A stretch of DNA of 64,000 nucleotides from Proteobacteria bacterium UBA6503 (GTDB lineage: Bacteria > Pseudomonadota > Alphaproteobacteria > UBA1280 > UBA6503): positions 782,001 to 846,000 of the forward strand of contig DJLZ01000001.1 in the NCBI GenBank assembly GCA_002436405.1, written 5' to 3'. Both the position numbers and the translations under genes were made by a program. This document shows, in pieces, positions 5,936 to 55,390 of this stretch. Numbering within the stretch: position 1 is the first letter of the stretch; each line of letters opens with the position of its first letter. The notes beneath the pieces are model-generated. The model was given only the letters and a program-made list of their open reading frames with translations. It was not told the origin of the DNA and searched no databases.

Positions 5936-6232
5936 TTACTTACCTTTTTTCCGAGCACGCTCGGTCAGGTAAAAGGTTACCAGCAGCGGTACCGAAAGCC
6001 CCACCATAGGGGGGATAAACAGTGCCGCCGGAATGGTGCCCATCATCAGCGGGATAAGAACACCCACTACCGATGCAATCACCACACTGGGGTACAAAAC
6101 GCGGTTGCGCTTGATGCCCAGTTTGGGCCGTTCGTTGATGAAGGCTTTTTCCCACATGACCGAAAAGAACACCGTGAACAGGGTGTTCAAAAGCAGTCCG
6201 CAGGCTAAAGCCCCGATGAAGTATCCCGTCAT
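5936..6232 (-). CDS. Small integral membrane protein (3 predicted TM helices, basic C-terminus), paralog 1 of 3
   Basis: Hydrophobic 98 aa ORF with a C-terminal 'ERARKKGK'. Tandem with two similar ORFs. Confidence 0.55.
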   Translation of the reverse strand: MTGYFIGALACGLLLNTLFTVFFSVMWEKAFINERPKLGIKRNRVLYPSVVIASVVGVLIPLMMGTIPAALFIPPMVGLSVPLLVTFYLTERARKKGK

Positions 6233-6233
6233 A

Positions 6234-6533
6234 CTAGTCCTTCATAAAGACAGAGGCGAAAAGCGAAAGCAGGCTAAACACCGCATAAGCGATGAGCATG
6301 GCCCACATGGGGTACAAAAACAGTGCCCAACCCGTTGCCGATGAAAACATACCGACCACAAGGCCAATAAGTTCAAAAGGCACGGCAATGAAGCACCAAA
6401 GCAGTGCACCAGAGCCGCCAACGGGGCAGGTGCTGCCAATGGTTTCGGCGACGGCCTCAAAGATTGCAGAAATGATGAAGCTGGCCACAATGGCGGCCGC
6501 AACACCCACGAGGAGTATCAGGAAAGAAAGCAT
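6234..6533 (-). CDS. Small integral membrane protein, paralog 2 of 3
   Basis: 99 aa hydrophobic ORF. N-terminus similar to paralog 3 ('VAAAIVASFIISAIFEAVAETIG' vs 'LILAAVCSVVLSIAAEMLLSIGE'). Confidence 0.55.
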   Translation of the reverse strand: MLSFLILLVGVAAAIVASFIISAIFEAVAETIGSTCPVGGSGALLWCFIAVPFELIGLVVGMFSSATGWALFLYPMWAMLIAYAVFSLLSLFASVFMKD

Positions 6534-6536
6534 AAT

Positions 6537-6842
6537 TTAGCCTTTCTTTTTACCGCGCAGCTTCTCAAGAAACCCAAGGGCCGTGAGAATACCAAGAACA
6601 GTCAGCACGCCCAAAAGGGGGCTAAAGAACAGGGCAAAGCCTGTATCTCCGCTGGTGTAAGACATAAAGGTTGAAACCGCACCGCCAACCATGGCAATGG
6701 GCGCCAGAAAGAAGAAGCCGAAGCCACCCCAAACGGCGTGAAGTTCACCAATCGAGAGCAGCATTTCAGCCGCGATTGACAACACAACACTACAAACTGC
6801 AGCCAGGATTAAACCTGCCACAATAGTGAGAACGATAGACAT
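6537..6842 (-). CDS. Small integral membrane protein, paralog 3 of 3
   Basis: 101 aa hydrophobic ORF. C-terminal 'LRGKKKG' resembles paralog 1. Gaps between the three genes are 1-3 nt. Confidence 0.55.
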   Translation of the reverse strand: MSIVLTIVAGLILAAVCSVVLSIAAEMLLSIGELHAVWGGFGFFFLAPIAMVGGAVSTFMSYTSGDTGFALFFSPLLGVLTVLGILTALGFLEKLRGKKKG

Positions 6843-9210: not shown

Positions 9211-9529
9211 GAAAAAAGACACTAAAAAAGAACCTAAATCAATGGGTCAGCGTAGCTTTAACAGTGGTTACAGTGTAGGCCTTAACCTGATGTCATGCGT
9301 GATTGTGGGTATGGCGATTGGTTACGGTATTGATGTTTACTTTGATACCAAGCCAGCGTTTTTCCTACTCTTTATGTTTTTGGGGATTGCCGCAGGCTTC
9401 CGTAGCATTTGGTATTTCATGAATGCACAGGCCCCAGCTAAGCCATCATCTAAGGTGGGTGAGGCCGATGGCCATGACCCGGGCGAGGGTGATGCAACGG
9501 CTGATGACGAGAACCAGCAAAGCAATTAA
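9200..9529 (+). CDS. atpI: ATP synthase protein I (AtpI/AtpZ-like F0 accessory membrane protein)
   Basis: Small two-TM protein immediately upstream of atpB ('AtpZ/AtpI' family pattern 'VGLNLMSCVIVGMAIGYGID'). Confidence 0.7.
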   Translation: MPSKKKDTKKEPKSMGQRSFNSGYSVGLNLMSCVIVGMAIGYGIDVYFDTKPAFFLLFMFLGIAAGFRSIWYFMNAQAPAKPSSKVGEADGHDPGEGDATADDENQQSN

Positions 9530-9557
9530 GGGTTCACTTTTTTAGCAAACATTTTAA

Positions 9558-9583
9558 AGGGGCGTGAAAACGCCCTTTTTTTG
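9558..9583 (+). terminator. Hairpin plus T-run between atpI and atpB (possible attenuator or terminator)
   Basis: aggggcg-tgaaaa-cgccct followed by TTTTTTT. Confidence 0.45.
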
Positions 9584-9623
9584 TATTTAAACGCTTGACG
9601 AAAATGCCCTTTTAAGGGTAAAA

Positions 9624-10415
9624 GTGCCCTGCAAAGACCTTAAAAAAGAAAGGGCCGTAACCGTGGCATTGGATCCGCTTCATCAGTTTGAAATTCGCCA
9701 GATTGGCACACTTGCGCTTGGTCAGTTTGAACTTGCTGTTACAAACCAAGCTGTTTGGATTATGAGCTCAACCGCATTTTTGTGCGCGTTGCTAGTGCTT
9801 GCTGCTCGCCCTAAAGCTTTGGTGCCAGGCCGCCTACAAGGCATGCTTGAAGTCACCTACGGCTTTGTTGAAGAAATGGTAACCTCAGCCTCAGGTAAGG
9901 CTGGCATGCGTTTCTTTCCATTTGTATTTACGCTTTTCACATTTATCGCCATTTCAAACCTTTCAGGTATGATTCCTGGTTCATACACAACAACTTCACA
10001 GCTTACTGTGACAGCCACTTTCGCGCTGATTGTTTTTGGTATGGTTTGGGTTGTTGGCTTTTTGACCCACGGTCTTAAGTTCCTAAAACTTTTTGCACCA
10101 TCAGGTGTACCGCTACCACTGCTATTCTTGTTGGTACCGCTAGAGATTATTTCATTCTTTGCACGCCCGCTTACACTATCAGTGCGTTTGATGGCGAACA
10201 TGTTGGCAGGTCACATTCTGCTTAAAGTGTTTGCTGGCTTCGCTGTGATGATGGTGGGTGCTATGGGCTTCACTGGCCTAGCAACTGGCCTTGTACCAGG
10301 TGTTTTCTTGGTGGCACTATCTGCACTTGAGCTATTTGTGGCTTTGATTCAGGCTTACATTTTTGCGCTACTGACTTGCGTATATCTGAATGACGCCCTG
10401 CACATGCACCACTAA
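9624..10415 (+). CDS. atpB: F0F1 ATP synthase subunit a
   Basis: Conserved 'LSVRLMANMLAGH' with the essential Arg. The true start may be the in-frame GTG near 9663 ('VALDPLHQFEI'). Confidence 0.9.
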   Translation: MPCKDLKKERAVTVALDPLHQFEIRQIGTLALGQFELAVTNQAVWIMSSTAFLCALLVLAARPKALVPGRLQGMLEVTYGFVEEMVTSASGKAGMRFFPFVFTLFTFIAISNLSGMIPGSYTTTSQLTVTATFALIVFGMVWVVGFLTHGLKFLKLFAPSGVPLPLLFLLVPLEIISFFARPLTLSVRLMANMLAGHILLKVFAGFAVMMVGAMGFTGLATGLVPGVFLVALSALELFVALIQAYIFALLTCVYLNDALHMHH

Positions 10416-14363: not shown

Positions 14364-15467
14364 ATGCCTAAAGTTGTTATTGTATCAGGAACTCGTCCAG
14401 AGGTTGTAAAGCTTGCGCCAGTGTTGCAGGCCTTGCGTAATATTCCAACGTTAACTGCCGAATGGCATAGTACTGGCCAACACCGCGAAATGCTTGACCA
14501 GGCCGAGGCTGTTTTTGGGATTACACCAGATGCTGACTTTGACGTTATGCAGCCAAACCAAACACCGCTTGATGTTGTGACCCGTATTTCAAAAGAGCTT
14601 GAGCAACATTGGAGTAAAGATAAGCCCGACTTTGTTGTGGTCCAGGGTGATACTGCCACAACGTTTGCTGCAGCATTAACAGCGTTTTACATGCGCATTC
14701 CGGTCGGCCACGTTGAGGCTGGCTTGCGGAGTTACAACCCGCAAGAGCCATTCCCCGAAGAAGCGCACCGCCGCATGATTGGGCCTCTAACAACATTGCA
14801 CTTCCCGCCGACGGCTATGTCGCAGCGCAATTTGGTGATGGAACACTTTGCCCCTGAAGATATTCATACTGTAGGCAATACCGTGGTAGATGCCTTGCTC
14901 AGCATTCCTGATGATCCTGAATTTGTGGTTGGCGATAATGTTGACCCCAATAAACGCCTTATTTTGGTAACGGCACACCGCCGTGAGAACCACCAACAGC
15001 TAACTGATATTTGCAAAGCACTGAAGCAAATTCGTGATGCAAACGATGATGTGGAAATTGTCTTCCCTGTTCACCTAAACCCTAATGTACGGAAGGTGAC
15101 TGACGCTGAACTTAAGGATGAAGAGCGTATTCACCTGCTTGACCCTATGGGATACTTTGATTTTGTGCAGCTGATGCGCCGTGCTCAGCTTATTCTGACA
15201 GACAGTGGTGGCATTCAAGAAGAAGCCCCAACTTACAAGATCCCGACCCTTGTTTTACGCCGCCAAACCGAGCGCCCTGAAGCGGTAAACGCAGGCATGG
15301 CACGCCTTGTGGGGACGGACACTAAAACAATTGTAGATAATGCAAACGAATTGCTGCAAAATGCAGATTCATACGACGCAATGCGTAAGGGTGAGAACCC
15401 CTTTGGGGATGGCCTAAGCGGCCAACGAATTGCCGAGATTATTAATGATTTTCTAGCTAAAGGCTAA
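14364..15467 (+). CDS. wecB: UDP-N-acetylglucosamine 2-epimerase (non-hydrolysing); WecB/NfrC homolog
   Basis: 'KVVIVSGTRPEVVKLAPV...HVEAGLRS...DSGGIQEEAP' epimerase signature. Confidence 0.88.
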   Translation: MPKVVIVSGTRPEVVKLAPVLQALRNIPTLTAEWHSTGQHREMLDQAEAVFGITPDADFDVMQPNQTPLDVVTRISKELEQHWSKDKPDFVVVQGDTATTFAAALTAFYMRIPVGHVEAGLRSYNPQEPFPEEAHRRMIGPLTTLHFPPTAMSQRNLVMEHFAPEDIHTVGNTVVDALLSIPDDPEFVVGDNVDPNKRLILVTAHRRENHQQLTDICKALKQIRDANDDVEIVFPVHLNPNVRKVTDAELKDEERIHLLDPMGYFDFVQLMRRAQLILTDSGGIQEEAPTYKIPTLVLRRQTERPEAVNAGMARLVGTDTKTIVDNANELLQNADSYDAMRKGENPFGDGLSGQRIAEIINDFLAKG

Positions 15468-15471
15468 CGCA

Positions 15472-17157
15472 TTGCTACTCATCGACTTTGTTGCATTTTA
15501 TATGTTCTTCCTTAAAGGCCTGTTGGTCTTTACGGCGACGGTTATTATTATCTCAAGCCTTGATGACTTGTTTTTTGACCTTGTATATTGGGTACGTGTG
15601 ACCCACCGCTGGTTTGTGTTCCGTCATAAGTATAAGCCGCTTGAGGCTGAGGCCTTGTTTGTGCCAGCACAAAAGCCTTTTGCTGTTATGGTGCCTGCCT
15701 GGCAAGAGAGTGACGTTATTGCCCATATGGTCAACAACACGCTGCGTACGTTTGACTATGACAACTACCAGATTTTTATCGGGTGCTACAAAAACGACCC
15801 CGCCACCCAAGCCGAAGCCGATAAACTGGCAGAACAATACCCACAAGTACATAAAGTGGTGGTGCCACACGATGGCCCAACCTGTAAGGCTGACTGCCTA
15901 AACTGGCTGATTCAGGGTGTGAAACTTCAAGAGAAAAAGCAAGGCGAAGAGTTTGCTGGCATCGTGATGCACGATGCTGAAGATGTTGTGCACCGCCTAG
16001 AGCTACGCCTTTTTAACCACCTTGTTGATCGTAAAGACCTTATGCAGCTGCCTGTATTTTCGCTTGAGCGTAAATGGTACGAGTTTACTGCCGGCCACTA
16101 CATTGACGAATTTGCTGAAGCCCATACAAAAGATATGCTCGTCCGTGAAGAGCTTATTGGCGAAGTGCCAAGCGCTGGTGTGGCAACGTGTTTTTCACGC
16201 CGTGCAATTGAAGCTCTGGCTGCTGAGAATAACAACATCGTCTTTAACACCGATAGCCTGACTGAAGACTATGACATTAGCTTCCGTCTAAAGTCATTGG
16301 GGATGAGTCAAATTTTCTTACGTTATGGGGTGATGGCCACCATACGTAAAACCTCGCCATTTACGGGCAAGGTGCGTACGGTGCGCCAACGCGATTACGT
16401 TGCCACGCGTGAGTACTTCCCGAACAGCATTACAACAGCTAAGCGCCAAAAGTCTCGCTGGATTTTGGGGATTGTGTTTCAAGGGTGGCGCACCATGGGC
16501 TGGCACGGCAATATTGTGATGCGCTATGTGCTGTTCCGTGACCGTAAGGCGCTGATTACATCGCTTGCCACATTCTGCGCCTACTTTATTTTTGCGAACA
16601 TTTTAACGCTACGTACGCTTGATTACCTGTTTGGTGATGCCTACCAATTCCCAAGTATTGTTGAGATTGGTACATTCCCTTGGTGGTTGATTCTGTTTAA
16701 CATCTTCTTTTTAGCAAACCGTATCTTCCACCGTATGTTGTTTACCACACGCATCTACGGGTGGGAGCAGGGCTTGTTGTCATTCCCACGCATGATTGTG
16801 GGGAACTACGTTAACTTTTTGGCAACGTCACGTGCGCTACGCTTGTTTATTATGCATGTGTTCTTTGGCCAAAAATTGGTGTGGGATAAAACCGACCACG
16901 CATATCCTTCGGCTGATGAGCTGGCCCACATGAAGCAACGCTTGGGTGAGCTGCTTATTGAGCGTCGCCTGATTACACAGCATGCGCTGGCACAAGCTTT
17001 GAAAAAGCAAAAAGATGCGAAACGCCCACTGGGTGAAATTTTGCTTGATATGGAAGCGATTACAATTGACGATTTGGCCAATGCCCTTGCCCAAAACCTT
17101 GGCATTTCTGTAGGTGAGGCACGCCAAAAACTTACTGCAAAGGAAGCGACAGCATAA
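15472..17157 (+). CDS. nfrB: NfrB-like membrane-anchored family-2 glycosyltransferase with a C-terminal MshEN (T2SSE_N-like) c-di-GMP-binding domain
   Basis: N-terminal TM helices. GT2 core ('VMVPAWQESDVIAHMV...VVVPHDGPTCKADCLNW...VMHDAEDVVH'). C-terminal tandem MshEN motif ('RLGELLIERRLITQHALAQAL...PLGEILLDMEAITIDDLANALAQNLGI'). TTG start at 15472 (alternative ATG at 15502). Confidence 0.8.
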   Translation: MLLIDFVAFYMFFLKGLLVFTATVIIISSLDDLFFDLVYWVRVTHRWFVFRHKYKPLEAEALFVPAQKPFAVMVPAWQESDVIAHMVNNTLRTFDYDNYQIFIGCYKNDPATQAEADKLAEQYPQVHKVVVPHDGPTCKADCLNWLIQGVKLQEKKQGEEFAGIVMHDAEDVVHRLELRLFNHLVDRKDLMQLPVFSLERKWYEFTAGHYIDEFAEAHTKDMLVREELIGEVPSAGVATCFSRRAIEALAAENNNIVFNTDSLTEDYDISFRLKSLGMSQIFLRYGVMATIRKTSPFTGKVRTVRQRDYVATREYFPNSITTAKRQKSRWILGIVFQGWRTMGWHGNIVMRYVLFRDRKALITSLATFCAYFIFANILTLRTLDYLFGDAYQFPSIVEIGTFPWWLILFNIFFLANRIFHRMLFTTRIYGWEQGLLSFPRMIVGNYVNFLATSRALRLFIMHVFFGQKLVWDKTDHAYPSADELAHMKQRLGELLIERRLITQHALAQALKKQKDAKRPLGEILLDMEAITIDDLANALAQNLGISVGEARQKLTAKEATA

Positions 17158-19175
17158 TGCGCACATTTGTTCTAACAGCTTTAACTTTAAGTGTTTTTGC
17201 AACAGGGCTTCATGCCCTGCCTGAGGTTGCTCATGCTGAAAGCTCACTTGCGAACTTTCGCTCATACCCCCTAGCAAGCCGTGGCTATAACCTAATTGAG
17301 CAGCGCCGTTATGAAGATGCTCGTAAAATGTTTGAGCGTGCCGTACAAATTATGCCCTCAAACATCGACTACCGCTTGCAGCTGGCAAACTTGCTGGTGA
17401 CTGAAAAGCGCTTTGCTAAAGCGCACCAAGTGGTGCTTGAAGGCCTAAAGCTTACACCAAACCACCGTGGTTTGATTGTGCTTGAAGATAATCTACGCAA
17501 AGAACTTGCCGCCCTTGAGGTGAACTTACCTCCATTGCCTGAAGACCCTAACGCCAAGGCACGTTTTATTACGTCGCCGTATACCGAGCGTCAACGTGCT
17601 GTTGTTGAAAGTACAGTGGATGGTCAGCTTGCAGGCTCAAGTTCTGAAAGCTACTGCGAAACATTGCTTACCGATAGCTATAACGACCTCGCCGATAGCG
17701 CTGCCTTAAATGCGGGCTACTGCGCACTAGATGCAAAAGAAAACGCTAAGGCTATTAAACTTTTTGAAAATGCAAGCTACAGCAAAGATAGTGCTATTGC
17801 GGTGCAGGCGTTAAACCAGTTGGGCTTTATTTACACCGATAAAAACCAACACGCTAAAGCCGCCCAATACTGGCGCAAGTCAGTGGCGATGGAGCCGAAC
17901 ACCGGGATTGAGATTAACATTGCCCGTGCGTACCGCCTATCAGGCGAGCTAGAAAAGGCCCATAAGGCCCTTACACCTATTGCTGAGGGTACTGACACTA
18001 CCGCCGAGAATAAAGTGGCTGCAATGCGCGAATTGGCCCTTATGTTTGATGACCAAGACAATACCCCCGAAGCCTATGAAGCAGGCGAAGACATTATTGC
18101 CCTCAAACCTATTGCCTCAGATTATTACTACCAAGCTTTGCGCGCCCAACGTATGGGTGATTATGACCAAGCGCTAGACTACCTAGAGCAGGCCAACCAA
18201 ATGCAGCCCGATACATTTATTTACATGTACAGCCTTGCTTATGCCTACCGAGCCGATGGCCAGTTTGAGAATGCAGCCAACATGTTTGAAAAAGCATTGG
18301 GTAAAGAAGACTCAACCGACCTGCGCCTTGACTATGCCTACAGCCTTAAAGAAATTGGCGAGCGTAAAAAGGCTGCCGAGCAGTTTGTGATTGTGCAAAA
18401 CCAAATTGATGATGTTGAAAAAGAAGACCCTATGCGCCGCGAAGTGCGTGATCTGAACCGTGAATGGACGACTTTCGGCAGCATTAGTTACCGTGATGGT
18501 GTTTACAGCGGTATCGATTCAACAGGTTCGCAGCTTTATGACGATAGCTTCCAGTACGGTATCGAAACTGTATATAGCCCTGAAAAATGGCAGCGTAATG
18601 GCCGCCGTGTTCAGCTTTACGGTCAAATTTTTGCGTCATCTGATAGCAGCACGTTTAACTGGAACCAAGACTCAACCCAAGGGGCTATTGGTGCCCGCGT
18701 TACACCACTGCGAGATACCGAGTGGTACCTTTACATCGCACGTCTTGTGGCACTGGGTGATGATGCTCTAAACGATACGCAACTACGTACGACATTTAGC
18801 AACACCGATGGCTTTGAGTACGAGGCCACCGAAAACGATTGGGAATATAAGTTCTTTAACGTTGATTTGTCATACCTGATTGAAGAAGACCAAATCTTTG
18901 CAACATCTGAAGCCCGCTATGGTCGCTCATACAAACGAGGGACTGACCTTGTGTTGACGCCGCACGTGGTGCTTGCAGGCTCAGTAATTGAAAATGACAT
19001 CCGTGACAGCCAAAACCTTGAGGCAGGCTTAGGTGTGAGTGCTAAGCTTTGGAAAGGGGAAACGGAAACCCAATACCCCGATAAAAGCCTTGAGCTTATT
19101 GTGCAGTGGCGCCAACCCATTAGCAGTGACGATAATAAATCAGGCCCATTTATCCGCCTTGTGGGCCAGTTTTAA
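17157..19175 (+). CDS. nfrA: NfrA-like outer-membrane protein: signal peptide, N-terminal TPR array, C-terminal beta-barrel ending in Phe
   Basis: ATG overlaps the nfrB stop (taATGc). Signal peptide 'MRTFVLTALTLSVFATGLHALPEVAHA'. TPR-like repeats in residues ~40-400. The C-terminal ~270 aa have an alternating hydrophobic pattern ending in '...IRLVGQF'. Confidence 0.7.
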   Translation: MRTFVLTALTLSVFATGLHALPEVAHAESSLANFRSYPLASRGYNLIEQRRYEDARKMFERAVQIMPSNIDYRLQLANLLVTEKRFAKAHQVVLEGLKLTPNHRGLIVLEDNLRKELAALEVNLPPLPEDPNAKARFITSPYTERQRAVVESTVDGQLAGSSSESYCETLLTDSYNDLADSAALNAGYCALDAKENAKAIKLFENASYSKDSAIAVQALNQLGFIYTDKNQHAKAAQYWRKSVAMEPNTGIEINIARAYRLSGELEKAHKALTPIAEGTDTTAENKVAAMRELALMFDDQDNTPEAYEAGEDIIALKPIASDYYYQALRAQRMGDYDQALDYLEQANQMQPDTFIYMYSLAYAYRADGQFENAANMFEKALGKEDSTDLRLDYAYSLKEIGERKKAAEQFVIVQNQIDDVEKEDPMRREVRDLNREWTTFGSISYRDGVYSGIDSTGSQLYDDSFQYGIETVYSPEKWQRNGRRVQLYGQIFASSDSSTFNWNQDSTQGAIGARVTPLRDTEWYLYIARLVALGDDALNDTQLRTTFSNTDGFEYEATENDWEYKFFNVDLSYLIEEDQIFATSEARYGRSYKRGTDLVLTPHVVLAGSVIENDIRDSQNLEAGLGVSAKLWKGETETQYPDKSLELIVQWRQPISSDDNKSGPFIRLVGQF

Positions 19176-19196
19176 TAAAAAAGCTTAAAAAAAGCA

Positions 19197-19237
19197 GAGG
19201 GTTGTATACAGTTTTTGTTGCAACCCTTTGTTTTTTG
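19197..19237 (+). terminator. Rho-independent terminator after nfrA
   Basis: gagggttg-(16 nt loop)-caaccct followed by ttgttttttg. Confidence 0.7.
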
Positions 19238-19305
19238 CGTATCATGCAGTCAAACACTCTATCTTTCTTTCCCTTTTCTTAAGACATCCCACAGGAGAAC
19301 TACTT

Positions 19306-19659
19306 ATGTTCGACTTCCGTTCGCTTGCCGTGTTTTTCGGCGCTTTCATTGTTTCGATGTTCACTGGTCCCATGCTCGGCGCCATGATCGGCCTCGCCGG
19401 CGTTATCGCCGCTGTTGCCGCCCCCAAGGTGCTGAATGTCATTTCGGCAACGCCGTATGCCCAGTACCTGACCTTCACGTTCTTCGCCGTACTGTTCGCA
19501 CTGACCGGCTCGACCGTGCTGGCCGTTCTCGCCTTCGTCGCGATGGGCCTGGCGCCTGCAGGCATGGGTCTGATCATCGTCGACTTCGCGCTGTTCTTCG
19601 GCTTCTACATCGGCCTGATCAGCTACGTCTTCCCGAAGATGATTCAGCCGAAGCTGTAA
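19306..19659 (+). CDS. Orphan small membrane protein (117 aa, ~3 TM) with anomalously GC-rich codon usage
   Basis: AGGAGA RBS 7 nt upstream of the ATG. Third codon positions are almost all G/C (ctc/gcc/ggc/ttc), whereas flanking genes prefer A/T-ending codons. All six frames are open across it. Terminators lie on both sides. Confidence 0.6.
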   Translation: MFDFRSLAVFFGAFIVSMFTGPMLGAMIGLAGVIAAVAAPKVLNVISATPYAQYLTFTFFAVLFALTGSTVLAVLAFVAMGLAPAGMGLIIVDFALFFGFYIGLISYVFPKMIQPKL

Positions 19660-19674
19660 TCAGCCTTTAACGAA

Positions 19675-19715
19675 TAAAAACACCCCAGCTTTTTGCTGGG
19701 GTGTTTTTTGTTTTT
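19675..19715. terminator. Bidirectional rho-independent terminator
   Basis: aaaa-acaccccagc-ttttt-gctggggtgt-tttttg. Serves the GC-rich gene (+) and the convergent minus-strand operon. Confidence 0.8.
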
Positions 19716-19724
19716 CTAATAGCT

Positions 19725-20126
19725 TTAGTTTTCGATAGCGGGGGGGCCAGGTTGGTTATGGCGCACTTCAAAACTTTCAACCATGCCATCATGCTCAATA
19801 TCAAGATGCAGCGTCAGGGCGTAGGGTAGGCCGTGGTCATAAAGGTCACCCGCTACATCGTGGGCAAAAGCACTGGCTGAAGGCCAGCTTTGGCTAATCA
19901 CATGCTCAAGGTAGGCATTCATGCTTTTGGCCGAGAATGTGTTTTTCTCGGGCTGGTAAATCACATATAAAATTGCGGGGCACTGTGCGCCATCAATATG
20001 GAGTGTACATTCTTTTTCAACGCCAATATCGGTCACAGCACCTTGGCCATGATGCTCTAGCAGGTCGAGCATTTTTTGGCGGTGCTGGCGTTGTTCCGCT
20101 GGGCTAAGTTCTTGTAGGTTAGACAT
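19725..20126 (-). CDS. Hypothetical protein (133 aa), last gene of the flhA-flhF-tag-fliK'-cheR operon
   Basis: ATG at 20126 with a GGAGA RBS, overlapping the cheR stop by 8 nt (the longer ORF to 20237 would lie inside cheR). No recognisable domain. Confidence 0.5.
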   Translation of the reverse strand: MSNLQELSPAEQRQHRQKMLDLLEHHGQGAVTDIGVEKECTLHIDGAQCPAILYVIYQPEKNTFSAKSMNAYLEHVISQSWPSASAFAHDVAGDLYDHGLPYALTLHLDIEHDGMVESFEVRHNQPGPPAIEN

Positions 20127-21003: not shown

Positions 21004-23070
21004 TTAGGCCTCAACGTTTAATTGGTGTTCTGGAGCATCGTCAGTTATTGGGGCCAACATGTCGTGCAGTGGGTCGGTTTCAAAAAAGCTGACTGTTTCA
21101 ATTTGTAGGGTGCCGCGCAAGCCAACGGCTGAAAGGCTGTTTTGAACAAGCTCTTCTAGGCCTTTATGCTCAGCTTCGCTGATACCCTGCGTCATGCGGA
21201 TTTTAATATGCATCACGTCTTTGCCCTGCATTAAGCCATCAAGCTGGATGGGACCAAGCTCACTCATTTTAACATTCAAAACAAAGCGGAGTGAATCACC
21301 ATCGTCTGGGTTTTGCTTTTTGTGCTTACGCCAAAAAAAGCTGCCTTGCTGTAATGTTTGGTTTTGGTCATCAAGGTAGGGGAACATCAGCGCACGCCAA
21401 CCGTCAGGTGCATCTGGCTTTTGATGAAGGTTATTGAGCTGGGCAGCGTCTGACTGCAGCATACCATCAAGGCCAAGGGCACGTAGCATGTTCAGAACGT
21501 CATCACCAAAGAATGAGCGCATGTTTTGCGTTGTAATGCTATGGCTCAGCTGTAAAAGCTTCGGCAATAGTTTTTCATTGGCCTCGGGAAGCACGCTTTT
21601 TAGTTTTTCAGCCCCTTCAGGGTTGCTGTCTTCAAGGTTGCTCATGGCTTGGGCGAGGGTGTCCCATGACAGTGAAAAACGAAGCAGCGCGTTACTGCGG
21701 TCACTGCCCTTAGGCATCACAATATCTAGAATTTCAGCATGGCCATCAGGCATAATATGTACGCTGATATGACTACCCACAGGTAGCATGCGCTGTGCAA
21801 TAACAGGCGTACGTACATCTTTACCAAATTGCAAAATAACTTCACCGCCTGGGCGTTGTTCAACAACGGTACCCGTGGCAATTTGACCCACGCTAAGCTC
21901 AGGTGTTTTGGCAGCAATTGACCCTTGTTGGCTTGACTGTTGTGCCCCTGTTTGCTGGGTTTGGCGGGCAGCAGCATCTTGCTGTGATTGATGCTCAGGG
22001 TTACGGCCTGCAACTGACTGTGGCGCACGAGCGCTTACGGTACTTAGTACCTCAAGCACGCCTGAGTCTGTAAAGCGAATAGCCATTTGTTGTACACCTT
22101 GTGAGTTTGAATTTTGGCCCGAACCTAACGTGCTTTGAAAGCCAAGCTGTTGCAGCGTTTGTTCAGGAATATCAAAGGTTAATAATACCCCATTTTGCAA
22201 CCCGATAGTAACGCTATTTGGTTGGAACTGCTGCACCGTCACAAGCTGTGGGCTTGTGTTACGTAGCAATGCCGTTGGAATAGGGCTTTGCGATTTAAGC
22301 TTTATAGGGGTGGGCAATAGCACGCGCCCTTCGGTGGTAAGTTTACCTGTGCCCTCAATAACCACCTGACGGGGGAATGACCCACGAGTTTCGTTGGTTA
22401 GCTCAGGCGCATCCGAAAGTGTGGCTTGCGGCAGTTGCGGTACGGGCAAGCGCAGCTTATCAATAACGGCTGTTTGGTTTTGGCCAATTTTTAAAACAAC
22501 TTCTGAGTTAACTTCAAACACAGGCGGCAGCAGCAACGTAAGTTGATGCCCGTTGGTAAGGTTCAAGGTTTGGCCACCACTTTGAGGGGGTGTGAGGGTA
22601 CGGCCCATCACGCTCATACCGGGGCTTGGCATAAAGATTGAGTTTTGTGGCCCGCTCATGTTTACACGAGGTGCCGTAAACTGAATGGTTTGTCCTTCTT
22701 TTGCCATAGCGTTTTTCGCAATATCGAGCAGCACTGAGGGCGTGCTTGAAGGGCGGATTTGCGCAGGCTGTTCAGGGGTTTTTGGTAGTAAAACACGCAA
22801 AATCTCTGGTGGTTGGTCGCCTTTCATTTGCAATAAAAGCTGACTGCCCGGAGGAATATTCTCAGGCACGTCAGCGGTAATGATTTGCCCTGATGGTAAC
22901 TGTAGCTGGGCTTGGCCATTGGCTGCTCGTTGTGCCAGAACCTCAACCTTCAATAAGCCTTGGCGGTGCTTAGGCGGGACGTCTTTCGCATTCTGCAATT
23001 GCTCGTTCTGCTTTTCACCACGGTCACGTGGCTCAAGCAAAATCAGCGTGTTCTGTGAGAGCAGTTGCAT
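21004..23070 (-). CDS. Second FliK-family protein: long Q/P/S/T-rich protein with a C-terminal Flg_hook (FliK C-terminal) domain
   Basis: C-terminus 'LRFVLNVKMSELGPIQLDGLMQGKDVMHIKIRMTQGISEAEHKGLEELVQNSLSAVGLRGTLQIETV' follows the FliK C-domain pattern. Compare the canonical fliK at 53651. Confidence 0.6.
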   Translation of the reverse strand: MQLLSQNTLILLEPRDRGEKQNEQLQNAKDVPPKHRQGLLKVEVLAQRAANGQAQLQLPSGQIITADVPENIPPGSQLLLQMKGDQPPEILRVLLPKTPEQPAQIRPSSTPSVLLDIAKNAMAKEGQTIQFTAPRVNMSGPQNSIFMPSPGMSVMGRTLTPPQSGGQTLNLTNGHQLTLLLPPVFEVNSEVVLKIGQNQTAVIDKLRLPVPQLPQATLSDAPELTNETRGSFPRQVVIEGTGKLTTEGRVLLPTPIKLKSQSPIPTALLRNTSPQLVTVQQFQPNSVTIGLQNGVLLTFDIPEQTLQQLGFQSTLGSGQNSNSQGVQQMAIRFTDSGVLEVLSTVSARAPQSVAGRNPEHQSQQDAAARQTQQTGAQQSSQQGSIAAKTPELSVGQIATGTVVEQRPGGEVILQFGKDVRTPVIAQRMLPVGSHISVHIMPDGHAEILDIVMPKGSDRSNALLRFSLSWDTLAQAMSNLEDSNPEGAEKLKSVLPEANEKLLPKLLQLSHSITTQNMRSFFGDDVLNMLRALGLDGMLQSDAAQLNNLHQKPDAPDGWRALMFPYLDDQNQTLQQGSFFWRKHKKQNPDDGDSLRFVLNVKMSELGPIQLDGLMQGKDVMHIKIRMTQGISEAEHKGLEELVQNSLSAVGLRGTLQIETVSFFETDPLHDMLAPITDDAPEHQLNVEA

Positions 23071-53650: not shown

Positions 53651-55390
53651 ATGATGATACCTGATCTTTCGCAACTTCTTTCATTCTCACCATCAGCCAC
53701 AGGTTTTGGTGGTCTTTTTGGTGCTCAAACAGCTAGCCAAGGCGGCGGTTTGTTTGGTGGACTTATGGGTGAGGGTGTCTCAGGCGAAGGGAGTTTGTTT
53801 GGTAACGTCCTCAGCAGTATGCTGGGTGAAAGCGGTCTTGTAGAAACCCTTTCGGCTGCGGAAGAGCTTAACCTAGAAGAGCTCGAAAACTCAGAAGAAG
53901 CTGAACTTGCTATTATTCAGGTGACACAAGTTGTGACCGTCGTTTACGAAGAATTTACAATGCTATCGTCATCAGGGGTAAACTTTGATGACCTTAATAG
54001 CGTTGATTCGTTGTCAGCTGCGTACCAACAACTTGGTATGTCACAAGAAGAAGCTGATAGCCGTGCCACACGCCTAACCGTTATGTTTATGCTGCTTGAT
54101 AACCGTATTTCAACGGCTGATCTTGTAGCGGGTCTAAGCACCGATCAAATCGCTGTAAAACAACAGCGTACATTTATTCAAATTGAACAATCAATCCAAG
54201 CGTTTTCAGTGGCGAGCGTAGGCTCATCTGGACAGTTGTCATCACTATTGGCGGAAGGCCAAAGCCTGATGAATGGTGGCCTTTCAGATGCTGAGCTTCA
54301 AGCGGCCCTTGCTGGTGCAGGCGAAGTACAGTCAGACGCTGACCTAGCCTTGGCATCAACCGATGGCGAAAACCCACTCGAAGGCAACTTGTTTGGCCGT
54401 GTAAGTGAGATTTTTAATAAACTAGCCGACCGTGCAAGCCAGCACCCAGAAGGTAAACAACTTGCAGCTCAATTGCAGGAGATTGCCCAAGCGACGCAAA
54501 ATATTTCAGACAAAGTGGTGAAAGATGGCGGTTTGCAAAATGTGCAAAAAGCCCTTGAAACACCAACTTTGCAAAGTAATTCGCAGCAAGCGGTACAGGC
54601 GCAAATCGCCGAAGATCGCCCACTGCCATCAGCAAAAGCTGAACGTGAAATTCAAGCCAATGCCCGTGCGCAAGAGGTTGCTGCAGATGAAGCAAACCTT
54701 GGTAAAGGTGCCGGCGATAAACCAGCTGATGCTGCACGTAATAATACAGCTATGGTTGGTAACGGTCGCCCACAAGCACTGCCTGAACCACCTGTGCCAA
54801 CATTTGTTATGCGCCCAACGGCCGATGGTGGCGTTGAAGTGGTTGACCCTGCAACAGGTGAAGTTATTCAAAGTAGTCAAGGTAACCTAGCAAACGCATC
54901 AAATACGCAAGCGGCTGATGGCCCAATGGCGCAAAGCCGTGGTCTAGAAACTGCACAACAAGTACGCCTTGCCCAGCAAGTGCGTGTGCATGTGCGTACC
55001 CTTGCGGCACACAACGGCGGCCAGATTGTCGTGAACCTTAACCCTAAAGAACTTGGCCGCGTGCAAGTGCGCCTTGAGATTGAAGAGGGTGTTGTGAAAG
55101 GGGCTATTACAGTTCAGCGCCCTGACGTTGCAGAATCTATCGCAAAAGACATGCGTGCCCTTGAGCAAGCCCTTGCCGATGTTGGCCTAGAGTTGGCCCA
55201 AGATGGTATTGCGATTCAGCTTGAGAACCACTCAGCTGGTGACAGTAATAGCCAGGATTCTGAAGGGAAACGACAAACTGGCACAGGTTTTGCAAATACA
55301 TCTAGTGAGGCTCTATCAGGGGCTGTGGACGGCGAAGAGAGTGCCGGCCGCTGGATGAACCCTGACCGTCTTCTAGACGTTGAAGCCTAA
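53651..55390 (+). CDS. fliK: Flagellar hook-length control protein FliK
   Basis: C-terminal Flg_hook domain ('VRVHVRTLAAHNGGQIVVNLNPKELGRVQVRLEIEEGVVKGAITVQRPDVAESIAKDMRALEQALADVGLEL'). Upstream of flgD-flgE. Confidence 0.85.
   Translation: MMIPDLSQLLSFSPSATGFGGLFGAQTASQGGGLFGGLMGEGVSGEGSLFGNVLSSMLGESGLVETLSAAEELNLEELENSEEAELAIIQVTQVVTVVYEEFTMLSSSGVNFDDLNSVDSLSAAYQQLGMSQEEADSRATRLTVMFMLLDNRISTADLVAGLSTDQIAVKQQRTFIQIEQSIQAFSVASVGSSGQLSSLLAEGQSLMNGGLSDAELQAALAGAGEVQSDADLALASTDGENPLEGNLFGRVSEIFNKLADRASQHPEGKQLAAQLQEIAQATQNISDKVVKDGGLQNVQKALETPTLQSNSQQAVQAQIAEDRPLPSAKAEREIQANARAQEVAADEANLGKGAGDKPADAARNNTAMVGNGRPQALPEPPVPTFVMRPTADGGVEVVDPATGEVIQSSQGNLANASNTQAADGPMAQSRGLETAQQVRLAQQVRVHVRTLAAHNGGQIVVNLNPKELGRVQVRLEIEEGVVKGAITVQRPDVAESIAKDMRALEQALADVGLELAQDGIAIQLENHSAGDSNSQDSEGKRQTGTGFANTSSEALSGAVDGEESAGRWMNPDRLLDVEA

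What the first reader, a model, noticed from the sequence alone, without database searches (positions are those of the whole stretch)
19197..19715. GC-rich orphan membrane-protein gene bracketed by two terminators
The 117 aa ORF (19306-19659) has ~60% GC with G/C at almost every third codon position. Adjacent genes, including highly expressed rplS, atpE and flagellin, prefer A/T-ending codons at ~48% GC. The composition leaves all six frames open across the region. It has its own RBS (AGGAGA) and upstream promoter space, and rho-independent terminators on both sides. This signature fits a recently acquired single-gene cassette, or a gene under unusual constraint. The product is a G/A-rich three-TM protein with no obvious family.
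Basis: seen in the sequence. Interest (0 to 1): 0.6.

Follow-up and report, generated by a model that had tools for sequence, protein, structure and literature searches.

The report
Old orphan membrane gene, foreign-looking codons
A small three-helix membrane-protein gene in the flagellar gene cluster of marine Magnetococcales looks like foreign DNA, but it is an old resident whose G/C-ending codons (the ones this genome avoids) have been actively kept for a very long time; why is not yet known.

Summary
ORF 19306-19659 (117 aa) has GC3 0.805. Every other real gene in the window has 0.35-0.53, and host codon usage predicts 0.448±0.043 for this protein (z=8.5). One detail is wrong: only three of six frames are open.

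The "recently acquired cassette" reading is refuted. The window is from a marine Magnetococcales MAG. The gene sits at the same position (fliI-fliJ…X→←Y133-cheR) in every related lineage found, and its divergence ranking follows that of its neighbours. GC3 is 0.80-0.92 in eight loci whose neighbours are near synonymous saturation. Its own 4-fold sites have turned over, but half of the changes are C↔G.

The bias is confined to the ORF and to synonymous sites. It points toward codons that highly expressed host genes never use (CTC, GTC, TCG).

The extreme bias co-occurs perfectly with an invariant 23-bp element (19202-19224) overlapping the -35 box. A nested lineage without the element has GC3 0.68. 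Outgroup orthologues have host-like GC3.

The unit is monocistronic: σ70-like promoter, CU-rich unstructured leader, AGGAGA, ORF, covarying terminator. The protein family has about ten clusters among 5.8 billion and no known relatives.

The most likely cause is selection acting through translation. The mechanism is inferred, not shown.

The parts
19190..19235 (+). Hairpin plus T-run after nfrA. In this genome it would act as the intrinsic terminator of the wecB-nfrB-nfrA unit.
   Evidence: -23 kcal/mol, z=-6.45. The lower stem differs between lineages. In L006 and L010 only the core hairpin remains (-9 to -10 kcal/mol, z about -0.5) and no T-run follows.
19202..19224 (+). Invariant 23-mer TTGTATACAGTTTTTGTTGCAAC. 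It contains the palindromes TGTATACA and GTTGCAAC. It is a putative operator or UP-like element overlapping the -35 box.
   Evidence: It is 100% identical in W, L001-L008, L010 and L016, although the proteins share only 33-96% identity. It occurs once in the window with 0 expected by chance. It is absent from L009, L011 and the outgroups. The TGTATACA core equals the core of the GntR-type operator ATGTATACAT (PMC7797058). That resemblance is a lead only.
19218..19245 (+). σ70-like promoter: -35 TTGCAA, 16-nt spacer, -10 TATCAT.
   Evidence: Both hexamers and the 16-17 nt spacing are kept in orthologues: TATGAT in L005, L007, L010 and L016; TATGTT in L006. The transcription start near 19252 is inferred.
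19257..19280 (+). Purine-poor CU tract of the 5' leader (CTCTATCTTTCTTTCCCTTTTCTT).
   Evidence: Such a tract precedes the SD in every family member, outgroups included. The leader plus start region is unstructured: MFE -6 kcal/mol, z=+0.46. A role as an S1-type enhancer or a Rho (rut) ligand is inferred.
19293..19298 (+). Shine-Dalgarno AGGAGA, 7 nt before the ATG.
   Evidence: GGAGA is invariant in the alignment.
19306..19659 (+). Gene X: 117-aa three-helix membrane protein (GenBank MBA44747.1, annotated 'hypothetical protein'). GC3 is 0.805.
   Evidence: It is protein-coding: variable columns by codon position are 21/15/41, dN/dS is 0.2-0.4, and indels are in-frame.
19676..19718 (+). Intrinsic terminator with an A-tract before and a T-tract after the stem, so it is likely bidirectional. 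It is shared with the convergent cheR-Y133 unit.
   Evidence: -24.9 kcal/mol, z=-8.4; 13 pairs, 2 of them with compensatory double changes.
19725..20126 (-). Y133: a conserved 133-aa ORF overlapping the end of cheR by 8 nt. It is the constant convergent neighbour of X.
   Evidence: No Pfam or PDB match.

Best explanation
X is an old, vertically inherited gene restricted to marine Magnetococcales. It encodes a small inner-membrane protein with three TM helices. The positive-inside rule suggests N-out/C-in topology (my own reading of the sequence).

It sits as its own transcription unit in the flagellar/chemotaxis supercluster, between fliI-fliJ and the convergent cheR-Y133 genes. The unit consists of a conserved σ70-like promoter embedded in an invariant 23-bp element, an unstructured CU-rich leader, a strong SD, the ORF and a hairpin terminator.

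The foreign-looking composition is not a relic of transfer. It is a shifted equilibrium at synonymous sites, held there by selection acting through translation of this ORF. The gene systematically uses C/G-ending codons (CTC, CTG, GTC, TCG, CCG, GCC, GGC, ATC, TTC, AAG, CAG). It avoids the A/T-ending codons that the host prefers, most strongly in its highly expressed genes.

The most likely effect is that elongation on this very hydrophobic message is uncoupled from the host's major tRNA pool. Decoding would be slow or condition-dependent, despite strong initiation signals. That would suit co-translational membrane insertion or dosage control, or it would insulate the message from competition with massively expressed genes such as flagellin.

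Shown: age, synteny, maintenance of the bias, restriction to the ORF and to synonymous sites, direction against host-preferred codons, and the link with the 23-mer.

Inferred: that the force is selection on decoding, what it achieves, and what binds the 23-mer.
For: Residence and age:
- X orthologues occupy the same position in 13 ingroup loci (L001-L012 and L016; L002-L004 repeat L001, and L011/L012 carry one sequence). Positional homologues, one of them of uncertain homology, occupy it in four outgroup loci (L013-L015 and L017).
- Its divergence ranking follows that of the neighbouring genes.

Maintenance of the bias:
- GC3 is 0.805-0.920 in 8 loci, while their neighbours have 0.43-0.61.
- Neighbouring cheR and fliI differ at 52-59% of 4-fold sites between these genomes. 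X differs at 33-45%. Relative to each gene's own saturation level the two are similar (about 0.7).
- About half of X's differences are C↔G exchanges, against 10-20% in the neighbours. The sites turn over but stay G/C.
- A rough F81 estimate of mine predicts that a neutral gene starting at 0.85 would now be near 0.66. That matches the 0.68 seen in the one nested lineage (L009/L011) that lost the 23-mer.

The rise happened in place:
- The outgroup orthologue L015 aligns with hhalign E=3e-5 over its full length, sharing the N-terminal DFR and C-terminal VFPxxxxP(K/R)L. L014, L015 and L017 have host-like GC3 of 0.52-0.64.

Translation-linked:
- GC1 and GC2 do not shift (0.50-0.60 and 0.35-0.41 in both ingroup and outgroup).
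- The leader lying between the 23-mer and the ORF stays T-rich.
- The bias runs to the last sense codon and is weaker in codons 1-20 (0.65 against 0.85).
- Leu uses CTN 88 times and TTG once.

Direction of the bias:
- The six highly expressed genes (rplS, rpmE, two flagellins, atpE, atpF) use CTC, GTC, TCG and TCC at 0.00. X uses CTC at 0.21-0.33, GTC at 0.33-0.35 and TCG at 0.63-0.80.
- X has a lower codon-usage likelihood under host usage than all 56 genes compared.

Not RNA structure: shuffling synonymous codons gives z=-0.9, -0.2, +0.2 and -2.4.

Not an overlapping gene.
Against: - There is no expression, tRNA-gene or ribosome-profiling data, so "slow or condition-dependent decoding" is untested.
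- Other membrane-protein genes of the same genome (atpE 0.35, atpB 0.45, fliP 0.52, motA-like 0.48) lack the bias. A general membrane-insertion argument therefore does not explain why X is special.
- Recombination does occur inside X (a mosaic tract in L001, and all four gametes among close alleles). GC-biased gene conversion therefore cannot be formally excluded.
- The link between the 23-mer and GC3 rests on few independent lineages: about four with the element, one nested without it, and the outgroups.
- The loci are metagenomic contigs, and phylogenetic placement rests on CheR and FliJ identities only.
Confidence: 0.6

Rival explanations
1. Selection acts on the nucleotide composition of the transcript rather than on decoding. 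An A-poor, GC-rich message would be globally compact and carry few sites for A/U-directed endonucleases such as RNase E, or for ribosome-dependent toxins that need A in the third codon position (HigB-type; recalled from memory). It would therefore be long-lived or able to survive toxin activity.
For: - A-ending codons are the most depleted class. At 4-fold sites A is 0.02 in X against 0.24 in the host, while T is 0.135 against 0.36.
- The A3 depletion is family-wide (0.01-0.10), even in outgroups whose GC3 is host-like.
- The leader is purine-poor in all members.
- A strong 3' hairpin is present.
- TTG is replaced by CTG, which also raises GC at a first codon position.
Against: - The bias stops exactly at the ORF boundaries, and the leader stays T-rich.
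- The arrangement of synonymous codons gives no extra folding energy.
- ACA occurs 1-3 times per ORF, which I estimate to be about what the composition predicts, so there is no MazF-type avoidance.
- The stop codon is TAA in all ingroup orthologues (TGA in L015 and L017).
Confidence: 0.17
2. GC-biased gene conversion. X would be a local recombination hotspot, perhaps because diversifying selection on its periplasmic loop favours allele exchange. Repeated conversion tracts would then drive synonymous sites to G/C without any benefit.
For: - L001 carries a ~57-nt mosaic tract (codons 74-92) in an otherwise near-identical gene.
- Close alleles show all four gametes at residues 4, 83, 87 and 111.
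- dN at short range is 10-20 times that of the neighbours.
- The C/G ratio at 4-fold sites (about 1.5) equals that of the host.
Against: - The effect is limited to 350 bp with sharp edges at the start and stop codons.
- The 80-nt promoter and leader between the 23-mer and the ORF is not GC-enriched.
- GC1 and GC2 are unchanged despite rapid amino-acid turnover.
- A is depleted far more than T (T/A is 6 against 1.5 in the host), which a strand-symmetric process does not predict.
- From my own knowledge, reported gBGC effects in bacteria are a few per cent of GC3, not +0.4.
Confidence: 0.1
3. Recent, or ancient but un-ameliorated, horizontal acquisition of a single-gene cassette from a high-GC donor.
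For: - The codon table of X resembles that of a 60-65% GC bacterium.
- The gene is bracketed by hairpins and carries its own promoter.
- The protein is an orphan.
Against: - Syntenic orthologues occur in all relatives, and their divergence ranking agrees with that of the neighbours.
- Outgroup orthologues have host-like GC3.
- Synonymous sites have turned over while GC3 stayed at 0.80-0.92.
- GC1 and GC2 are host-like, not donor-like.
- No homologue outside this clade was found among 5.8 billion clusters or 1.84 billion representatives.
Confidence: 0.04
4. Dual coding: the G/C-ending codons are kept because a second protein is read from the open +2 or antisense -0 frame.
For: - Frames +2 (a 151-aa ORF at 19215-19670) and -0 (a 111-aa ORF at 19242-19577) have no stop inside X in the window.
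- Avoiding TTA, CTA and TCA automatically keeps frame -0 open.
Against: - Frame -0 is interrupted in L008 (96% identical to W), L009 and L011. Frame +2 is interrupted in L006 and L011.
- All A-ending codons are avoided, not only the three that would create antisense stops.
- Open shadow frames are expected at GC3 of 0.8 or more.
Confidence: 0.03

Closest known systems
Compositionally atypical ORFan or genomic islet acquired by horizontal transfer (amelioration framework of Lawrence and Ochman; from my own knowledge)
   Same: It is a single short gene with GC3 and codon usage far from the host's. It is bracketed by hairpins, has its own promoter, and has no homologues outside a narrow clade.
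   Different: It is in fixed synteny across the clade. The composition is stationary through near-saturating synonymous divergence. Outgroup orthologues are host-like, GC1 and GC2 are host-like, and no donor was found.
Codon-mediated control of specific genes by rare codons, e.g. TTA codons with the bldA tRNA in Streptomyces, or 'modification-tunable transcripts' (from my own knowledge)
   Same: Use of host-rare codons in a particular gene is conserved, which implies that its translation depends on a minor part of the tRNA pool.
   Different: Here the whole ORF is recoded (about 80-90% of third positions), not one or a few sentinel codons. The direction is reversed (G/C-ending codons in a mid-GC genome). 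No dedicated tRNA or modification enzyme has been identified.
Programmed slow translation for membrane-protein targeting (Fluman et al. 2014, eLife, PMC4359368; codon bias affecting the sorting of a K+ channel, PMC8151079)
   Same: It is a very hydrophobic small membrane protein whose message carries features expected to slow elongation.
   Different: The described cases are local pauses (SD-like elements or rare-codon clusters at defined distances). Here the bias is uniform from codon ~21 to the stop, and other membrane-protein genes of the same genome lack it.
Small G/A-rich multi-TM stress proteins such as the GlsB/YeaQ/YmgE ('transglycosylase-associated') family; class I holins; type I toxins
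   Same: Size class, three TM helices, Gly/Ala-rich helices, and a monocistronic unit with its own promoter and terminator.
   Different: No Pfam, NCBIfam, PHROG or PADLOC match at E≤0.1-1. No antisense RNA or antitoxin is evident. It is longer than type I toxins. It has no phage context and no charged C-terminal tail.
GntR/FCD-type operator ATGTATACAT of Atu1419 (PMC7797058)
   Same: The invariant 23-mer contains TGTATACA, which matches the GT-Nx-AC palindrome signature, and it lies just upstream of and overlapping the -35 box.
   Different: The match covers only 8 of 10 bases. No GntR gene has been identified nearby. The invariant block is 23 bp, longer than one such operator, and it also forms a hairpin.

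Membership tests
Horizontally acquired gene cassette / genomic islet | Patchy presence: absent from the orthologous interval of close relatives | tested here: not met
   X or its positional homologue lies between fliJ and Y133-cheR in every related locus recovered. The patchy element is wecB-nfrB-nfrA.
Horizontally acquired gene cassette / genomic islet | Atypical composition that decays toward the host with time (amelioration) | tested here: not met
   GC3 is 0.80-0.92 in 8 loci, although neighbours differ at 52-59% of 4-fold sites. Half of X's 4-fold differences are C↔G.
Horizontally acquired gene cassette / genomic islet | Homologues in a plausible donor lineage, or mobility genes or repeats at the borders | tested here: not met
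   Only about 10 clusters, all from this clade, among 5.8 billion. Three representatives among 1.84 billion. No integrase or direct repeats; the flanks are a promoter and a terminator.
Real protein-coding gene (as opposed to a chance ORF in GC-rich DNA) | Purifying selection in this frame, third-position variation, in-frame indels, conserved start and stop | tested here: met
   dN/dS is 0.2-0.4. Variable columns by codon position are 21/15/41. Indels are whole codons, and the ATG, the stop codon (TAA in the ingroup) and the SD are conserved. AF2 pLDDT is 88.
Any Pfam / NCBIfam / PHROG / PADLOC family (including Transgly_assoc, holins, FliO/FliQ) | Profile match at or near the family threshold | tested here: not met
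   No family at E≤0.1 in Pfam. In NCBIfam the best hit is E=0.004 for one family member, and the best hit for X itself scores 13.8 bits against a cut-off of 825. No meaningful PHROG or PADLOC match. PDB sequence and Foldseek searches give nothing below E=0.15 and 1.5.
Codon-gated genes (bldA/TTA-like) | Conserved use of host-rare codons in the gene | tested here: met
   CTC and GTC are each 4% of Leu/Val codons in the host and 0% in highly expressed genes, but 21-35% in X across orthologues. TCG is 8% in the host and 63-80% in X.
Codon-gated genes (bldA/TTA-like) | A limiting or regulated tRNA (or tRNA modification) that decodes those codons, with expression depending on it | not testable with these tools
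   There are no tRNA genes in the window.
   Downstream: (2 compensatory pairs). Upstream: the hairpin plus T-run is strong in W and L005. In L006 and L010 only the invariant core remains, without a T-run.
GntR-type operator | Palindrome of the form GT-Nx-AC bound by a GntR-family regulator | tested here: inconclusive
   TGTATACA is present and invariant and matches the core of the Atu1419 operator. No regulator has been identified and binding was not tested.

The most novel reading that the evidence does not exclude
X and its invariant 23-bp element form a previously undescribed kind of expression module. A whole ORF would be recoded away from the host's major tRNAs, so that its translation is gated by, or insulated from, the state of the tRNA pool. 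One example is during mass synthesis of flagellin, which uses the opposite codon set. Another is starvation or a change in U34 modification. In this reading the factor that recognises the 23-mer sets the condition. Loss of the element (the L009/L011 lineage) relaxes the codon constraint, which would explain the decay to GC3 0.68.
Probability: 0.2. Interest if true: 0.75.

Novelty: new variant of a known kind. Interest (0 to 1): 0.55.

Why it matters
Compositional anomaly is routinely read as horizontal transfer. This is a clean counter-example. A gene's synonymous sites are held at a foreign-looking equilibrium (GC3 0.8-0.9 in a genome at about 0.45) across an order-level clade. An internal control exists: one lineage lost the linked 23-bp element and drifted back about as far as neutral decay predicts.

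That makes gene-specific selection on synonymous sites, directed against the host's preferred codons, directly testable. It also defines a new, very narrow family of small membrane proteins, embedded in the flagellar/chemotaxis supercluster of the largely uncultured marine Magnetococcales.

Tried and rejected
- Specific mRNA structure as the cause of the bias. Synonymous-codon shuffles fold as well as the native ORFs (z -0.9, -0.2, +0.2, -2.4). Rfam finds nothing in the window.
- Overlapping or antisense gene. The shadow frames are interrupted in close orthologues.
- Translational optimisation for high expression. X uses exactly the codons that rplS, rpmE, the flagellins, atpE and atpF avoid.
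- MazF-type ACA avoidance. ACA occurs 1-3 times per ORF, which I estimate to be about what composition predicts.
- σ54, σ28 and ECF promoter readings of the 23-mer, checked by eye against the consensus sequences. The spacing or key bases do not fit, or they are not conserved between orthologues.
- Homology to the three other small hydrophobic ORFs of the window (5936-6842): none.
- Searches that found nothing:
  - GTDB genome contigs, with the protein alignment and with the 23-mer.
  - JGI metagenome contigs with the 23-mer. Known carriers such as L004 were also missed, so this collection is incomplete for the purpose.
  - Foldseek against PDB.
  - PDB sequence search.
- Not possible:
  - The AFDB fold library was not installed.
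- L013's 121-aa positional ORF could not be shown to be homologous (hhalign probability 5%).
Full report
**Observation**

Its GC is 0.588 and its GC3 is 0.805. The other real genes of the 64-kb window have GC3 of 0.35-0.53. Examples are rplS 0.37, atpE 0.35 and the two flagellins 0.35-0.37.

I drew codons for this exact amino-acid sequence from the window's own codon usage. That gave GC3 of 0.448±0.043, with a maximum of 0.632 in 20,000 draws. The observed value is 8.5 sd away.

AGGAGA lies 7 nt before the ATG. A hairpin with a T-run lies on each side:
- Upstream: 19190-19235, -23 kcal/mol, z=-6.5.
- Downstream: 19676-19708 plus its T-run, -24.9 kcal/mol, z=-8.4.

One statement is wrong. The six frames are not all open. 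Frames +1, -1 and -2 carry 7, 3 and 7 stops inside the ORF.

**What the gene is**

The exact protein is in GenBank as MBA44747.1, [quoted passage not shown], a marine (Tara) MAG.

It has no Pfam, NCBIfam, PHROG or PADLOC family. It has no PDB relative by sequence or by fold. AlphaFold2 on eight family members gives three long helices (residues 4-38, 50-79 and 87-116) with pLDDT 88. The distribution of Lys and Arg suggests N-out/C-in topology; that is my own reading.

The family is tiny:
- Five clusters plus the query's own cluster by word-seeded search.
- Three representatives among 1.84 billion by full HMMER.
- Ten clusters in total after adding outgroup sequences to the profile.

It is a real coding gene:
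- dN/dS is 0.2-0.4.
- Variable columns by codon position are 21/15/41.
- Indels are whole codons.
- The start codon, the SD and the C-terminal VFPxxxxP(K/R)L are conserved, and the stop is TAA in all ingroup orthologues.

**Context**

The window is a flagellar/chemotaxis supercluster. The gene order is:
- atpIBEF, rpmE, cheW(-), fliI, fliJ
- wecB-like epimerase, nfrB-like glycosyltransferase, nfrA-like TPR/outer-membrane protein
- X(+), then on the minus strand Y133, cheR, a 688-aa ORF, tag, flhF, flhA, a σ54 activator, a motA-like gene, fliN, fliG, fliF
- flagellins, fliD/S/L/M, cheY/Z/B/A, motB, fliP, fliK, flgD/E

**Is it an insertion?**

No. Contigs carrying each homologue show the arrangement fliI-fliJ-(±wecB-nfrB-nfrA)-X→←Y133-cheR in every case. 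In L006, L009, L010 and L016, X directly follows fliJ. The variable cassette in this interval is therefore the nfr block, not X.

I followed CheR homologues outward to 61-66% identity. The same interval there holds a positional homologue of 125 aa (L015, L017) or a split copy (L014). It aligns to the family profile over its full length (hhalign E=3e-5) and shares both termini. The protein's divergence ranking follows that of CheR and FliJ.

**Is the composition old?**

Yes. GC3 of the X orthologues, with their neighbours at 0.43-0.61:

| Locus | GC3 |
|---|---|
| W | 0.805 |
| L008 | 0.814 |
| L001 | 0.822 |
| L007 | 0.846 |
| L005 | 0.856 |
| L006 | 0.880 |
| L010 | 0.893 |
| L016 | 0.920 |

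These genomes are far apart:
- At 4-fold sites of conserved residues, cheR and fliI differ at 52-59%. Saturation for host composition is about 73%.
- X differs at 33-45%. Saturation for its own composition is about 62%.
- Relative to its own equilibrium, X has turned over about as much as its neighbours.
- About half of X's differences are C↔G exchanges, against 10-20% in the neighbours.

The synonymous sites are therefore being replaced but kept G/C.

A rough F81 calculation of mine uses d≈1.0 per 4-fold site between W and L006, which means about half of the sites in each lineage have been resampled. A neutral gene starting at 0.85 would then now sit near 0.66.

**Where the bias arose, and a natural control**

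The outgroup orthologues have host-like GC3. L015 has 0.53 and L017 has 0.52, with neighbours at 0.51-0.62. L014 has about 0.63, with neighbours at 0.44-0.70. The rise therefore happened in place, in the ancestor of the ingroup.

Within the ingroup, one lineage (L009, L011/L012) has only 0.68. By CheR identity it is closest to L006 (82%). It is also the only ingroup lineage that lacks the 23-mer described below. Its value is close to the neutral-decay estimate.

**Nature of the force**

- It is bounded by the ORF. The promoter and leader between the 23-mer and the ATG stay T-rich, and the 3' UTR is AT-rich. The last sense codons are still G/C-ending. Codons 1-20 are less biased (0.65 against 0.85), as expected if the start region is kept unstructured.
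- It is limited to synonymous sites. GC1 (0.50-0.60) and GC2 (0.35-0.41) are the same in ingroup and outgroup despite rapid amino-acid turnover.
- It reaches synonymous first positions. Leu is CTN 88 times and TTG once.
- It is strand-specific. At 4-fold sites X has A 0.02, T 0.135, C 0.50 and G 0.34. The host has A 0.24, T 0.36, C 0.24 and G 0.16.
- It runs against host preference. The six highly expressed genes of the window use CTA/CTT, GTA/GTT, GGT, GCT, ACA/ACT, TCA, CCA and AAA, and never use CTC, GTC, TCG or TCC. X uses CTG/CTC, GTC/GTG, GGC, GCC, ACC/ACG, TCG, CCG/CCC, AAG and CAG.
- It does not reflect a specific RNA fold or a second reading frame.

Together these points favour selection acting through translation of this ORF. 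They count against gene conversion, relic composition and a DNA-level effect. What the selection achieves is not shown. The candidates are slow or tRNA-pool-independent decoding, dosage control and membrane insertion.

**The transcription unit**

A σ70-like promoter is conserved in hexamers and spacing: TTGCAA, 16-17 nt, then TATCAT, TATGAT or TATGTT.

Its -35 box lies inside an invariant 23-mer, TTGTATACAGTTTTTGTTGCAAC (19202-19224). The 23-mer is identical in all eight lineage samples with extreme GC3, although their proteins are as little as 33% identical. It contains the palindromes TGTATACA and GTTGCAAC and can form a small hairpin.

In W and L005 a lineage-specific lower stem and a T-run turn it into the terminator of the upstream unit. 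In L006 and L010 it is not a terminator. Full invariance points to sequence-specific recognition. TGTATACA is the core of a published GntR-type operator (PMC7797058), but that is only a lead.

A purine-poor CU tract of about 25 nt precedes the SD in every family member, outgroups included. The leader is unstructured. This fits an S1-type translational enhancer. A Rho-loading site is an alternative. Both are inferences.

The downstream terminator is supported by two compensatory pairs.

**Variation within the gene**

The most variable part is the short loop between helices 2 and 3. L001 carries a ~57-nt mosaic tract there. Close alleles show all four gametes at residues 4, 83, 87 and 111. Recombination inside the gene therefore occurs. 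This keeps GC-biased gene conversion alive as a minor rival.

**Verdict**

The horizontal-transfer reading is refuted, and the "unusual constraint" reading is supported.

The thing is an uncharacterised, lineage-restricted small membrane-protein gene. Its codon usage is held against the host's own preferences, and that usage is coupled in evolution to an ultraconserved promoter-proximal element. The cause of the constraint and the function of the protein remain inferred.

Noticed in passing
window 14364-19175 (+); L005, L012 against L006, L009, L010, L016, L013-L015: The wecB-like epimerase, nfrB-like glycosyltransferase and nfrA-like TPR/outer-membrane genes form a block inserted between fliJ and X. 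The block is present only in some lineages, so it is the patchy, possibly mobile element of this interval.
   Followed up: partly
window 5936-6842 (-): Three tandem ORFs of about 100 aa lie downstream of mutY. They are very hydrophobic and weakly paralogous (27% identity, E 0.002-0.009). Their GC3 (0.68, 0.62, 0.53) is raised and their A3 (0.08-0.15) is low. They show no similarity to X. Small hydrophobic genes of this genome may share a milder form of the same bias.
   Followed up: partly
window 19725-20126 (-): Y133 overlaps the end of cheR by 8 nt and is conserved next to cheR in all lineages, including outgroups (18-78% identity). It has no Pfam or PDB match, so it is an uncharacterised partner of CheR.
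   Followed up: partly
L014 9298-9675 (-): The X orthologue of this outgroup genome is split by an in-frame TAG where L015 has Gln (CAG). This could be a pseudogene, a sequencing error or read-through.
   Followed up: no
L001 239-592, codons 74-92; cluster-1 alleles P0008-P0017: A ~57-nt mosaic tract covers the end of helix 2, the loop and the start of helix 3. Close alleles show four-gamete combinations at residues 4, 83, 87 and 111. This indicates intragenic recombination and a hypervariable periplasmic loop.
   Followed up: partly
window 21004-23070 (-): A 688-aa Q/P/S-rich ORF lies upstream of cheR and has no Pfam domain. It is conserved in position in all relatives (654-771 aa). A recognisable FliK is elsewhere, at 53651-55390.
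   Followed up: no
L013 (GCA_021774615.1 contig, 39.6% GC) 9323-10150 (-): In this low-GC relative the fliJ-to-Y interval holds two hydrophobic ORFs (121 and 150 aa) instead of one. Homology of the 121-aa ORF to X could not be shown (hhalign probability 5%); the 150-aa ORF was compared only by pairwise identity (15-45%).
   Followed up: partly
window 19326-19342 (+): A small hairpin, GCCG-TGTTTTT-CGGC, lies in codons 8-13 of X. It is identical at the nucleotide level in six orthologues and contains the gene's only conserved TTT codon. It is absent from the L009, L010 and L011 lineages.
   Followed up: no
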